This document shows positions 59,388-60,718 of a stretch of DNA of 64,000 nt, in pieces. Location of the stretch: IMG/VR virus record IMGVR_UViG_3300032327_001521; one strand, 5' to 3'. The notes under the pieces were generated by a model. The model saw only the letters and a program-made list of their open reading frames with translations. It was not told where the DNA came from and did no database searches. The DNA is from a virus. Its lineage: Duplodnaviria; Heunggongvirae; Uroviricota; Caudoviricetes. How positions within the stretch are numbered: the first letter of the stretch is position 1; every line of letters starts with the position of its first letter. Position numbers and translations under genes: made by a program.

Positions 59388-60269
59388 ATGATAGTTTTTA
59401 ACGCAAAGTCATTTGCCGATTGTTATAAGGCCTCTTTAGCTTACCTTTCCGAGCATGGAGCTCAAAACTCAGCTCGAGGTATACAGAGCAAGGAATTATT
59501 GGATGTTGCGCTTGAAATATCCGACCCAACCCAATGTCTCTACCTAAATGAGGCTAGAGGTTCACAAAAGAAGTATATTGCAGCTGAGCTTCTATGGTAC
59601 TACACAGGCCGATCTGATGTCCAATTTATTTCAAAATGGGCAAAGTTTTGGGAATCAATTCAAAACCCAGATGGCACCGCTAATTCTGCATACGGCAACT
59701 TAATCTTTAATGTCAAGAATCGTCACGGCTTTTCTCAATATCAGTGGGCCATGCAGAGCTTGCTAAATGATAAGAATACCCGGCAAGCAGTAATGCACTT
59801 TAATATGCCAACTCATCAATATGCCAATAATAAGGATTTTGTGTGCACAATGTATGCAAATTGCCATATTCGTAACAATAAGTTGTATATGTCAGTCTTT
59901 ATGCGAAGTAATGATGCAGTCTGGGGAACGCCAACCGATGTGGCATTTTTCTGTTCTCTTCAAATGCAGATGCATGCCCACCTAAAGGAATTTTATCCGG
60001 AGCTTGAACTGGGCACATATACTCATATTGCAAATTCTTATCATGTTTACGATAGACACTATGAGCTAATCAATAGAATGCTAACTTCTGATTTTACTGC
60101 AGTATCATTACCTGCAATTGGTTCAGATCTGGTTGATATAGATGGTTCACCGAGTCAAAGCCTGCAAACTCTAATGGCTGCAGCCTCAGCAACTGAGGAA
60201 AACTATCTCATTTTCCAAGATGGCAATGACCTTTTAAAATGGATATATCAACACGCAATTAAAGCATAA
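59388..60269 (+). CDS. Thymidylate-synthase-superfamily enzyme of the dCMP hydroxymethylase (T4 gp42-like) type
   Basis: YIAAELLWY, ANSAYG, DKNTRQA, DFVCT (catalytic Cys), MRSNDAVWGTPTDV (Asp at the ThyA Asn177 position), NSYHVYDRH. Confidence 0.8.
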   Translation: MIVFNAKSFADCYKASLAYLSEHGAQNSARGIQSKELLDVALEISDPTQCLYLNEARGSQKKYIAAELLWYYTGRSDVQFISKWAKFWESIQNPDGTANSAYGNLIFNVKNRHGFSQYQWAMQSLLNDKNTRQAVMHFNMPTHQYANNKDFVCTMYANCHIRNNKLYMSVFMRSNDAVWGTPTDVAFFCSLQMQMHAHLKEFYPELELGTYTHIANSYHVYDRHYELINRMLTSDFTAVSLPAIGSDLVDIDGSPSQSLQTLMAAASATEENYLIFQDGNDLLKWIYQHAIKA

Positions 60270-60718
60270 TGTATCAAAAGCAACATAAAATAGATATTGC
60301 CTATATTAAAATGGCCCAAACCTGGTCAGAGTTGTCACATGCAACTCGCAAAAAGGTTGGTGCCCTAATTGTTAAAAATAATACAATCATTGCCGATGGA
60401 TTTAATGGCACTCCATCTGGTTTTGAAAATGAATGCGAGTATGCTGTAAACAATGAGGACGGCTCCTTTAAGGAGTACCGGACCAAATGGTACGTGCTAC
60501 ACGCTGAATCCAATGCTCTAGCTAAAGTTGCAAAGTCTACACAGAGCAGCGATGGAGCAACACTCTATATTACCTATTCCCCATGTACTGATTGCAGCAA
60601 GTTAATTTTGCAAGCAGGTATAAAACGAGTAGTCTATGCTGAGGAATACCGAGATACAAATGGCCTTGACTTTTTACGCAGGGCAGGTATTGAGGTTAAA
60701 AAAATAGACCTTGAATGA
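60269..60718 (+). CDS. dCMP deaminase
   Basis: RKKVGALIV, GFNGTPSG, LHAESNA, SPCTDC, GIKRVVY. Confidence 0.93.
   Translation: MYQKQHKIDIAYIKMAQTWSELSHATRKKVGALIVKNNTIIADGFNGTPSGFENECEYAVNNEDGSFKEYRTKWYVLHAESNALAKVAKSTQSSDGATLYITYSPCTDCSKLILQAGIKRVVYAEEYRDTNGLDFLRRAGIEVKKIDLE

What the first reader, a model, noticed from the sequence alone, without database searches (positions are those of the whole stretch)
59388..60718. Probable modified-cytosine pathway: dCMP-type thymidylate-synthase homologue next to a dCMP deaminase, plus a gp56-like dCTPase
Seen: the TS-fold protein reads DFVCT and MRSNDAVWGTPTDV. Known: ThyA has Asn in LPFNI (N177, dUMP-specific), while T4 gp42 and MilA-type CMP/dCMP hydroxymethylases have Asp there. 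Other blocks (YIAAELLWY, ANSAYG, SYHVYDRH) also track T4 gp42 rather than ThyA. The 49205 protein closely parallels T4 gp56 dCTPase-dUTPase, which clears dCTP so the modified base is incorporated. Inference: the phage replaces C with 5hmC, 5mC or a further-decorated base. An unusual alternative is suggested by the overlapping deaminase: modified dCMP could be deaminated to hm-dUMP or dTMP, a cytosine-first route to a modified or normal T. No glycosyl- or other transferase is visible in this window.
Basis: partly seen in the sequence, partly recalled or inferred. Interest (0 to 1): 0.78.

Follow-up and report, generated by a model that had tools for sequence, protein, structure and literature searches.

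The report
T4-type hydroxymethylcytosine pathway, freshwater jumbo phage
An uncultured large freshwater phage carries the same enzyme set that phage T4 uses to replace cytosine in its DNA with 5-hydroxymethylcytosine; the prediction is well supported by sequence but is a new example of a known strategy, and no chemistry has been tested.

Summary
Observation confirmed. 59388-60269 encodes a 293-aa thymidylate-synthase-fold protein. Its diagnostic active-site positions (E. coli ThyA L143/C146/D169/N177) read D/C/D/D, as in T4 gp42. They differ from ThyA (L/C/D/N), Xp12 5-methyl-dCMP synthase (N/C/D/D), RB69 5-hydroxy-dCMP synthase (E/C/N/D) and an SPO1-type dUMP hydroxymethylase (D/C/D/N). The deoxyribose markers (Ser167, Arg126') are kept. 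All 53 distinct relatives share the signature.

The gene is translationally coupled to a canonical dCMP deaminase (closest: cyanophage S-TIM5 and T4 Cd) and to a conserved 133-aa unknown. 49205-49672 is a true gp56 homologue (28% identity, E 3e-22).

Four of five large relatives (214-271 kb, uncultured, Lak-like) carry a separate ordinary ThyA. An earlier scan note, which I could not read, says this genome does too. A cytosine-first route to thymidine is therefore not needed here, and it is already published for 5mC phages.

No alpha-glucosyltransferase, carbamoyltransferase or DHFR was found; the beta-glucosyltransferase and gp1 searches were empty but lacked a working control. Relatives have a Gmk-like kinase and a glycosyltransferase pair outside the window.

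Verdict: T4-type 5hmC pathway, a new member of a known kind. TS plus deaminase plus NTP pyrophosphatase is a published marker of modified-cytosine viromes.

The parts
59388..60269 (+). Thymidylate-synthase-fold enzyme, predicted dCMP hydroxymethylase (5hmdCMP synthase, T4 gp42 type), with a C-terminal extension of about 55 aa as in MilA
   Evidence: PF00303 2.2e-21. PDB phmmer: MilA 6e-20, T4 gp42 7e-16, ThyAs 1e-9 or weaker apart from one at 2.4e-11. Signature D/C/D/D equals T4 gp42. AF2 pLDDT 91.3. Foldseek top hit is MilA at TM 0.74, then ThyAs and T4 dCH interleaved.
60269..60718 (+). dCMP deaminase; its start codon overlaps the TS stop (TAATG)
   Evidence: PF00383 1.3e-22. PHROG 174 2e-51. 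PDB 4p9c (depositor name: deoxycytidylate deaminase; cyanophage S-TIM5 from my own knowledge) 4e-41, T4 Cd 1vq2 4e-25. BLASTP against T4 cd 1e-29. HAE and PCxxC zinc motifs are visible in the translation.
60715..61116 (+). Conserved 133-aa third gene of the operon (ATGA overlap); kinase-like alpha/beta fold without a Walker A loop; function unknown
   Evidence: Present in 79 of 80 related loci. 41 invariant columns, none of them Gly. No Pfam or PHROG hit. AF2 pLDDT 85. VIA Z 8.9 to the T4 polynucleotide kinase domain; the listed matches are mostly P-loop kinases. The only clear homologue is an uncharacterised protein of an uncultured phage, 48% identity.
49205..49672 (+). T4 gp56-like NTP pyrophosphohydrolase (predicted dCTPase/dUTPase)
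   Evidence: BLASTP against T4 gp56 3e-22, 28% identity over 149 aa, with the DExxE and ExxD acidic blocks aligned. RB69 gp56 5e-23. PHROG 173 4e-19. Pfam dUTPase_2 only 1.3e-3, below cut-off. 69-70% identical copies in 3 of 3 near-complete relatives.
37685..41087 (+). Class Ia ribonucleotide reductase, NrdB (37685-38644) and NrdA with ATP-cone (38676-41087): upstream supply of deoxynucleotides (context)
   Evidence: PF00268 2.5e-111; PF02867 6.6e-206 plus ATP-cone 7e-14.

Best explanation
This is the pyrimidine-precursor module of a T4-like pathway that puts 5-hydroxymethylcytosine (5hmC) into phage DNA. Inferred flow: the gp56-like pyrophosphohydrolase (49205) hydrolyses dCTP and dUTP to the monophosphates, which keeps plain dCTP away from the polymerase. 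dCMP is then shared between two translationally coupled enzymes. The TS-fold enzyme (59388) attacks C6 with Cys153 and transfers the methylene of CH2-THF to C5. It has an acidic residue (Asp150) where ThyA has the water-excluding Leu143, so it lets water hydrate the exocyclic methylene and releases 5hm-dCMP and THF. The deaminase (60269) converts the remaining dCMP to dUMP for a separate ordinary ThyA elsewhere in the genome. A kinase, not identified with certainty, raises 5hm-dCMP to the diphosphate; the candidate is the Gmk-like kinase seen in relatives. What is shown: homology, marker residues, gene order, translational coupling and conservation. What is inferred: substrates, product, incorporation into DNA and extent of replacement.
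For: (1) Marker residues by E. coli numbering 143/146/169/177 read D/C/D/D, identical to T4 gp42. The rule sorted every control I fetched: E. coli ThyA L/C/D/N, SPO1-like dUMP hydroxymethylase D/C/D/N, Xp12 5mdCMP synthase N/C/D/D, RB69 5hodCMP synthase E/C/N/D. The rule comes from PMC13326640 and bioRxiv 10.1101/2024.12.05.627091. Position 147 is Thr rather than His; positions 147 and 177 are the top two discriminators between modified and unmodified contigs in PMC8670742. (2) Deoxyribose markers: Ser at ThyA-167 and Arg at T4-R123', where the CMP-preferring MilA has Ala176 and Lys133. (3) All 53 distinct clade sequences keep D/C/D/D and the block NKDFVCTM. (4) PDB sequence search ranks MilA and T4 gp42 above ThyA, and the fold search puts MilA first. 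The tree separates this clade, together with the T4, RB69, SPO1-like, VPE25 and RsoM2USA enzymes, from ThyA plus Xp12 with support 99/96. (5) A gp56 homologue is present. (6) A second, canonical ThyA (about 280-314 bits, QRSVDTFLGLPFNI) is present in 4 of 5 large relatives. (7) TS-deaminase adjacency holds in 79 of 80 loci. The same adjacency was seen in 70% of modified-cytosine contigs against 6% of unmodified ones. (8) No avoidance of C-containing palindromes; this is weak evidence.
Against: No biochemical or DNA-composition data exist for this phage or any relative, and no cultured relative is known. Product prediction rests on a handful of residues, in a family that has recently surprised: the RB69-type enzymes turned out to be flavin-dependent hydroxylases. 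No T4 gp1-type dNMP kinase was found by sequence (that search had no positive control). The gp56-like gene was not detected in the two less complete relatives. The tree has long branches and does not resolve relationships among the hydroxymethylase-side enzymes.
Confidence: 0.7

Rival explanations
1. Xp12-type pathway. The enzyme is a dCMP methyltransferase making 5-methyl-dCMP, and the coupled deaminase converts part of it to dTMP: 5mC DNA with a cytosine-first route to T.
For: Asp at position 177 fits any dCMP-using enzyme. Xp12 has the same layout, with the TS stop overlapping the deaminase start by one base. In-cis deaminases of 5mdCMP synthases are reported to deaminate 5-substituted dC.
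Against: Position 143 is acidic (Asp) as in T4, MilA and SPO1 hydroxymethylases, whereas Xp12 has Asn. The tree puts Xp12 with ThyA, across a 99/96 branch from this clade. A separate canonical ThyA exists in relatives, so dTMP need not come from 5mdCMP. Xp12 carries DHFR next to its pair; relatives of this phage have none.
Confidence: 0.08
2. The hydroxymethylase product is deaminated. The coupled deaminase acts on 5hm-dCMP to give 5hm-dUMP, so the phage carries 5hmU or a hypermodified thymidine, alone or alongside 5hmC.
For: The two genes are tightly coupled translationally and the pairing is conserved. Seven of 90 metavirome in-cis deaminases produced 5hmdU in a 5hmdC-producing strain.
Against: All seven of those deaminases were paired with predicted 5mdCMP synthases, not hydroxymethylases. 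This deaminase is closest to ordinary dCMP deaminases (S-TIM5 4e-41, T4 Cd). T4 itself encodes both gp42 and Cd without making 5hmU.
Confidence: 0.08
3. RB69-type flavin-dependent 5-hydroxy-dCMP synthase, feeding ether-linked glycosylated cytosines.
For: It shares Asp177 and an acidic residue at 143 with that group, and falls on the same side of the tree. Glycosyltransferases exist in relatives.
Against: The diagnostic D169N change is absent: Asp169 is invariant in all 53 clade members. No arabinose or NDP-sugar genes were seen in the window.
Confidence: 0.05
4. Ordinary or redundant thymidylate synthase, or a CMP (ribo) hydroxymethylase unrelated to DNA.
For: It passes the Pfam ThyA model. 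The best PDB hit is the CMP enzyme MilA.
Against: Asn177 is replaced by Asp and His147 by Thr in every member. A true ThyA is encoded separately. Ser167 and Arg126' match deoxyribose users, not MilA's Ala and Lys. A dCTPase homologue and a dCMP deaminase accompany it.
Confidence: 0.03

Closest known systems
Phage T4 hydroxymethylcytosine pathway: gp42 dCMP hydroxymethylase, gp56 dCTPase/dUTPase, Cd dCMP deaminase, Td thymidylate synthase
   Same: All four enzyme types are present, with Td in relatives. The active-site signature D/C/D/D is identical. The gp56 homologue scores 3e-22 and Cd 1e-29. The genes sit in the replication/recombination block beside gp46/gp47, as in T4.
   Different: Only 27% identity to gp42. 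A C-terminal extension of about 55 aa. The TS and deaminase are fused into one translationally coupled operon with an extra 133-aa gene, whereas in T4 genes 42, cd and 56 are scattered. No alpha-glucosyltransferase or DHFR was detected in relatives; the beta-glucosyltransferase and gp1 searches were empty but uninformative because nothing rang in any control.
MilA, CMP 5-hydroxymethylase of mildiomycin biosynthesis (PDB 5jnh, 5b6d)
   Same: Best sequence hit (6e-20) and best fold hit (TM 0.74). Shares the C-terminal extension, Asp at 177 and an acidic residue at 143.
   Different: MilA has Ala176 and Lys133, which favour ribose; this protein has Ser and Arg like the deoxyribose users. The context here is phage DNA metabolism, not an antibiotic gene cluster.
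Metavirome 'modified cytosine' gene clusters (MetaGPA: TS homologue with Asp177, dCMP deaminase, PRA-PH/MazG-type pyrophosphohydrolase)
   Same: The same co-occurring domain set, with the deaminase within 3 kb of a dCMP-type TS homologue.
   Different: Those were short marine and sewage contigs. Many of them pair with carbamoyltransferases or are 5mC-type. Here no carbamoyltransferase is found, and the host genome is a large Lak-like myovirus lineage.
Xanthomonas phage Xp12: 5mdCMP synthase, dCMP deaminase, DHFR
   Same: A TS homologue with Asp177, followed by a deaminase whose start overlaps the TS stop by one base.
   Different: Xp12 has Asn at 143, groups with ThyA in the tree, and has no second ThyA annotated in the 50 kb I read. 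It makes 5mC.

Membership tests
dCMP hydroxymethylase (T4 gp42-type 5hmdCMP synthase, TS superfamily) | Thymidylate-synthase fold and PF00303 membership | tested here: met
   76.7 bits against a cut-off of 24.3. AF2 model pLDDT 91.3; Foldseek TM 0.62-0.75 to MilA, T4 dCH and ThyA.
dCMP hydroxymethylase (T4 gp42-type 5hmdCMP synthase, TS superfamily) | Catalytic nucleophile Cys (ThyA C146, T4 C148) | tested here: met
   Cys153 in DFVCT, 20 residues before the RS motif as in T4 and E. coli; invariant in 53 of 53.
dCMP hydroxymethylase (T4 gp42-type 5hmdCMP synthase, TS superfamily) | Asp at ThyA-N177 (T4 D179): cytosine specificity | tested here: met
   Asp184 in GTPTD; 53 of 53. The canonical ThyA paralogues of relatives have Asn.
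dCMP hydroxymethylase (T4 gp42-type 5hmdCMP synthase, TS superfamily) | Acidic residue at ThyA-L143 (water admitted, giving hydroxymethyl rather than methyl) | tested here: met
   Asp150; 53 of 53. T4 D, SPO1-like D, RB69 E, Xp12 N, ThyA L. The rule is from PMC13326640.
dCMP hydroxymethylase (T4 gp42-type 5hmdCMP synthase, TS superfamily) | Deoxyribose markers Ser167 and Arg126' (T4 S169, R123') | tested here: met
   Ser174 and Arg132, both invariant in alignment A2. MilA has Ala and Lys.
dCMP hydroxymethylase (T4 gp42-type 5hmdCMP synthase, TS superfamily) | Converts dCMP and CH2-THF to 5hm-dCMP and THF; 5hmC present in virion DNA | not testable with these tools
   No isolate and no chemistry; this needs an enzyme assay or nucleoside LC-MS.
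RB69-type 5-hydroxy-dCMP synthase | Asn in place of ThyA-D169 | tested here: not met
   Asp176 (MRSND), invariant in 53 of 53; the RB69 gp48 control reads MRSQN.
Xp12-type 5-methyl-dCMP synthase with deaminase as the sole dTMP source | Non-acidic residue at 143, and no separate ThyA in the genome | tested here: not met
Asp at 143 here against Asn in Xp12. A canonical ThyA is present in 4 of 5 large relatives.
T4 gp56 dCTPase/dUTPase (all-alpha NTP pyrophosphohydrolase) | Sequence homology to gp56 over the full domain, with the acidic metal-binding blocks | tested here: met
   3e-22, 28% identity over 149 aa; DEIHE aligned with DEFRE and EIID with ELVD. PHROG 173. The Pfam dUTPase_2 hit is below its cut-off.
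T4 gp56 dCTPase/dUTPase (all-alpha NTP pyrophosphohydrolase) | Hydrolyses dCTP and dCDP (and dUTP) but spares 5hm-dCTP | not testable with these tools
   Needs an enzyme assay.
dCMP deaminase (PF00383; T4 Cd and S-TIM5 type) | Zinc-binding HAE and PCxxC motifs, and homology to solved dCMP deaminases | tested here: met
   VLHAESNA and SPCTDC. 4p9c 4e-41, 1vq2 4e-25. The GFNGTPSG block aligns with the GWNGTPSG and GYNGSPAG blocks of the solved enzymes.

The most novel reading that the evidence does not exclude
The 5hmC made here is only an intermediate. It is further decorated by non-T4 enzymes of this lineage, for example the rapidly evolving GT4 plus GT2 glycosyltransferase pair that relatives carry about 10 kb downstream. 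In addition, or alternatively, the invariant 133-aa kinase-fold protein without a P-loop that is translationally coupled to the deaminase is a new component of the pathway, such as a nucleotide-binding regulator or channelling subunit, or an unconventional 5hm-dCMP kinase replacing the missing gp1.
Probability: 0.2. Interest if true: 0.6.

Novelty: new member of a known kind. Interest (0 to 1): 0.35.

Why it matters
If correct, a widespread lineage of uncultured freshwater jumbo phages replaces cytosine with 5hmC. I found 277 related contigs in IMG/VR. This would extend the T4 strategy well outside the Straboviridae and outside Enterobacterales hosts. Practically, it predicts that DNA of these phages resists many restriction enzymes and some library chemistries, such as bisulfite or APOBEC conversion and modification-dependent nucleases. 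That affects how they are sampled in viromes. It also offers a compact, naturally coupled hydroxymethylase-deaminase operon, with an unknown third gene, for enzymology. It does not change the understanding of how such pathways work.

Tried and rejected
- **Whole genome:** none is held for the window, and there is no near-identical DNA in the phage collection. Genome-wide questions were therefore asked of five large IMG/VR relatives only.
- **T4 beta-glucosyltransferase (PF09198):** no hit, but the family rang in no control genome, so the result is uninformative.
- **T4 alpha-glucosyltransferase (PF11440):** one weak hit (E 0.009), which turned out to be a DnaJ protein.
- **T4 gp1 dNMP kinase by protein search:** nothing, without a positive control.
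- **Other families:** DHFR none, with controls working. Carbamoyltransferase none. Thymidylate kinase none above cut-off.
- **ORF 60715-61116:** no Pfam or PHROG hit. No tblastn hit in cultured phages. The Atlas feature search stayed below 0.9. Fold searches give only generic P-loop-kinase-like matches (Z up to 8.9, TM about 0.5), and the alignment has no Walker A motif or invariant glycine. I do not call it a kinase.
- **Shared upstream word GCTAAACC** before both the gp56-like gene and the TS operon: 4 copies against 1.6 expected, reached by 9 of 100 shuffles, so not significant on its own.
- **Palindrome statistics:** no avoidance of C-containing sites. This is too weak to count for much.
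- **Tree:** it could not resolve which characterised enzyme is nearest, because of long branches.
- **Moraphage membership (PMC12619734):** it looks plausible (freshwater, DnaJ, Lak affinity) but was not tested. That paper does not mention these genes.
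Full report
**What is there**

The coordinates hold two overlapping genes on the + strand. The first is a 293-aa protein at 59388-60269 and the second a 149-aa protein at 60269-60718. The stop of the first and the start of the second share one base (TAATG). 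The stop of the second overlaps the start of a third gene, 60715-61116, 133 aa (ATGA). The three therefore form a translationally coupled operon.

Pfam assigns the first protein to thymidylate synthase (PF00303, 2.2e-21) and the second to the cytidine/dCMP deaminase family (PF00383, 1.3e-22). The third matches nothing.

**Which kind of TS-fold enzyme**

Against all PDB sequences, the best matches are the CMP hydroxymethylase MilA (6e-20) and T4 dCMP hydroxymethylase gp42 (7e-16). Ordinary thymidylate synthases follow at 2.4e-11 and weaker.

Recent work gives explicit marker positions in E. coli ThyA numbering:
- C146 is the nucleophile.
- N177D switches the substrate from dUMP to dCMP.
- L143 replaced by Asp or Glu goes with hydroxymethylated rather than methylated products.
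- D169N marks the newly found flavin-dependent 5-hydroxy-dCMP synthases.

These rules come from PMC13326640 and bioRxiv 10.1101/2024.12.05.627091. Positions 147 and 177 are also the two best discriminators of modified-cytosine contigs in PMC8670742.

I fetched enzymes of known product and read these positions in each:

| Enzyme | Product | 143/146/169/177 |
|---|---|---|
| E. coli ThyA | dTMP | L/C/D/N |
| SPO1-like dUMP hydroxymethylase | 5hm-dUMP | D/C/D/N |
| Xp12 5mdCMP synthase | 5m-dCMP | N/C/D/D |
| RB69 gp48 | 5ho-dCMP | E/C/N/D |
| T4 gp42 | 5hm-dCMP | D/C/D/D |
| Window protein | predicted | D/C/D/D |

The window protein also has Thr at position 147, as in gp42. The two residues that make MilA prefer ribose (Ala176, Lys133') are Ser and Arg here, as in the deoxyribose users.

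The AlphaFold model is confident (pLDDT 91.3). Its closest solved structure is MilA (TM 0.74, including part of the C-terminal extension), followed by ThyAs and T4 dCH interleaved.

A maximum-likelihood tree separates two groups with support 99/96. One holds this clade together with the T4, RB69, SPO1-like, VPE25 and RsoM2USA enzymes. The other holds E. coli ThyA, the relatives' canonical ThyAs and the Xp12 methylase. Long branches leave the order inside the first group unresolved.

**Relatives**

IMG/VR holds 277 contigs encoding relatives. The best 80 are 60-97% identical at the protein level, and several lie on contigs of 214-271 kb, one of which has terminal repeats. All 53 distinct sequences keep D/C/D/D and the block NKDFVCTM.

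Gene order around the operon is conserved: split PolB, UvsX, DnaB-like helicase, gp47-like, SET-domain protein, gp46-like, TS, deaminase, ORF133, then the head module. The deaminase directly follows the TS gene in 79 of 80 loci, and ORF133 is present in 79.

No cultured relative exists. The nearest UvsX proteins are those of Lak megaphages, at 38% identity, and the nearest TS homologue in GenBank phages is in a 462-kb uncultured phage, at 48%. The lineage resembles the 'moraphages' of PMC12619734 in being freshwater, Bacteroidota-associated and DnaJ-encoding. I did not test this, and that paper does not discuss these genes.

**The partners**

The 155-aa protein at 49205-49672 is homologous to T4 gp56: 3e-22, 28% identity over 149 aa, with both acidic blocks aligned. 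It has 69-70% identical copies in the three near-complete relatives.

The deaminase is closest to PDB 4p9c (4e-41), which I recognise as the cyanophage S-TIM5 enzyme, and to T4 Cd. It has the HAE and PCxxC zinc motifs and the GxNG block that aligns with the solved allosteric enzymes. It looks like a standard dCMP deaminase.

**Rest of the pathway**

I could not read the window's genome outside the 64 kb, so I searched five large relatives.
- **Canonical ThyA:** four of the five encode a second, canonical, long-form ThyA (about 280-314 bits; QRSVDTFLGLPFNI with Asn177). I could not check that note directly.
- **Not found:** DHFR, an alpha-glucosyltransferase (the one weak hit is a DnaJ), carbamoyltransferase and thymidylate kinase. 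The beta-glucosyltransferase search and the T4 gp1 search also found nothing, but neither had a working positive control.
- **Kinase candidate:** a small guanylate-kinase-family protein is present in four of five relatives, 9-11 kb from ThyA. It is the obvious candidate for the monophosphate kinase step.
- **Glycosyltransferases:** just past the point where the window ends, relatives carry a GT4 glycosyltransferase (596 aa) followed by a GT2 (251 aa). The two are fused in one relative, and the N-terminal part evolves fast. Their target, DNA or virion protein, is unknown. An earlier follow-up (e1-1881081) argued that other glycosyltransferases in this genome glycosylate tail fibres.
- **Window sweep:** a Pfam sweep of the remaining window ORFs found class Ia ribonucleotide reductase, GroEL/GroES, gp32, RNase H, a sigma factor and structural genes, but no transferase.

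**Interpretation**

The simplest reading is the T4 scheme. A dCTPase produces dCMP. A hydroxymethylase diverts dCMP to 5hm-dCMP. A deaminase sends the rest to dUMP for an ordinary ThyA.

Its 'unusual alternative' is unlikely here, because a normal dUMP-to-dTMP route exists and the deaminase is ordinary. The idea itself is already published for 5mC phages: in-cis deaminases of 5mdCMP synthases are reported to make dTMP from 5mdCMP. All seven deaminases that acted on 5hmdC in that screen were paired with predicted methylases, not hydroxymethylases. The same study shows that a deaminase within 3 kb of a dCMP-type TS homologue is itself a statistical marker of modified-cytosine phages (70% against 6%).

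**The third gene**

ORF 60715-61116 is strongly conserved, with 41 invariant columns. Its model (pLDDT 85) resembles P-loop kinase domains, with the T4 polynucleotide kinase domain at Z 8.9 and the listed matches mostly kinases. However, it has no Walker A loop and no invariant glycine. Its only clear homologue is an unannotated protein of an uncultured phage. Its function is open, and it is the least explained element of the operon.

**Limits**

Everything rests on sequence. The family has recently shown unexpected chemistry, so a residue-based product call deserves about 70-75% confidence, not more. Palindrome statistics show no avoidance of C-containing sites, which is compatible with protected DNA but is weak evidence.

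**Verdict**

This is a real, well-conserved T4-type 5hmC precursor module in a new, uncultured jumbo-phage lineage. It is a new member of a known kind and of moderate interest. Two open leads remain: the third gene and the possible further decoration of the base.

Noticed in passing
window 57191-57682 (+): A 163-aa SET-domain protein (PF00856, 27.6 bits against a cut-off of 22.4) sits between the gp47-like and gp46-like nuclease genes. It is conserved at 36-58% identity in four of the five large relatives examined. A lysine-methyltransferase fold is unusual in a phage recombination operon.
   Followed up: partly
window 49702-51093 (+), with 51065-51709 and 51706-52293: A family-B DNA polymerase ORF of 463 aa covers only the exonuclease domain and the first part of the polymerase domain (PF03104, and PF00136 positions 16-143 of 453). 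The next two ORFs have no Pfam or PHROG match. The same split is kept in relatives, so it appears to be a split gp43.
   Followed up: partly
window 60715-61116 (+): An invariant-rich 133-aa protein is translationally coupled to the deaminase. It has a kinase-like alpha/beta fold but no P-loop, and it is found only in uncultured phages.
   Followed up: yes
L098:58-2603 (relative G003) and L097:34-2595 (relative G005): A GT4 (GT-B) glycosyltransferase and a GT2 (GT-A) glycosyltransferase lie side by side, fused in one relative. They sit just after the head module and a DnaJ gene, about 10 kb downstream of the TS operon. This is beyond the end of the window, and their target is unknown.
   Followed up: partly
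L105:6600-8470 and 15759-16754 (relative G001, around the canonical ThyA): An Fpg/Nei-type DNA glycosylase and a 2OG-Fe(II) oxygenase lie just upstream of the long-form ThyA. A histone-deacetylase-family protein lies about 6 kb downstream.
   Followed up: no
window 29819-31390 (+) and 44943-45266 (+): Phage-encoded GroEL (PF00118, 5e-66) and GroES (PF00166, 7e-21). Relatives also carry a DnaJ next to the head protease.
   Followed up: no
window 1321-2685 (-): A 454-aa protein with an Amidoligase_2 domain (PF12224, 3e-7) lies among neck and tail genes.
   Followed up: no
L099:44850-46195 (Xanthomonas phage Xp12): In the 5mC phage Xp12, the TS homologue and the dCMP deaminase also overlap by a single base. 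They are followed by a DHFR-like gene. This is the same coupling as in the window but with a methylase-type enzyme.
   Followed up: partly
L104:2920-5278 (Enterococcus phage VPE25): The VPE25 TS homologue (36% identical to the window protein; signature D/C/D/D) is followed by a dUTPase and a gene annotated as beta-glucosyltransferase. This suggests glucosyl-5hmC in that cultured phage group.
   Followed up: no
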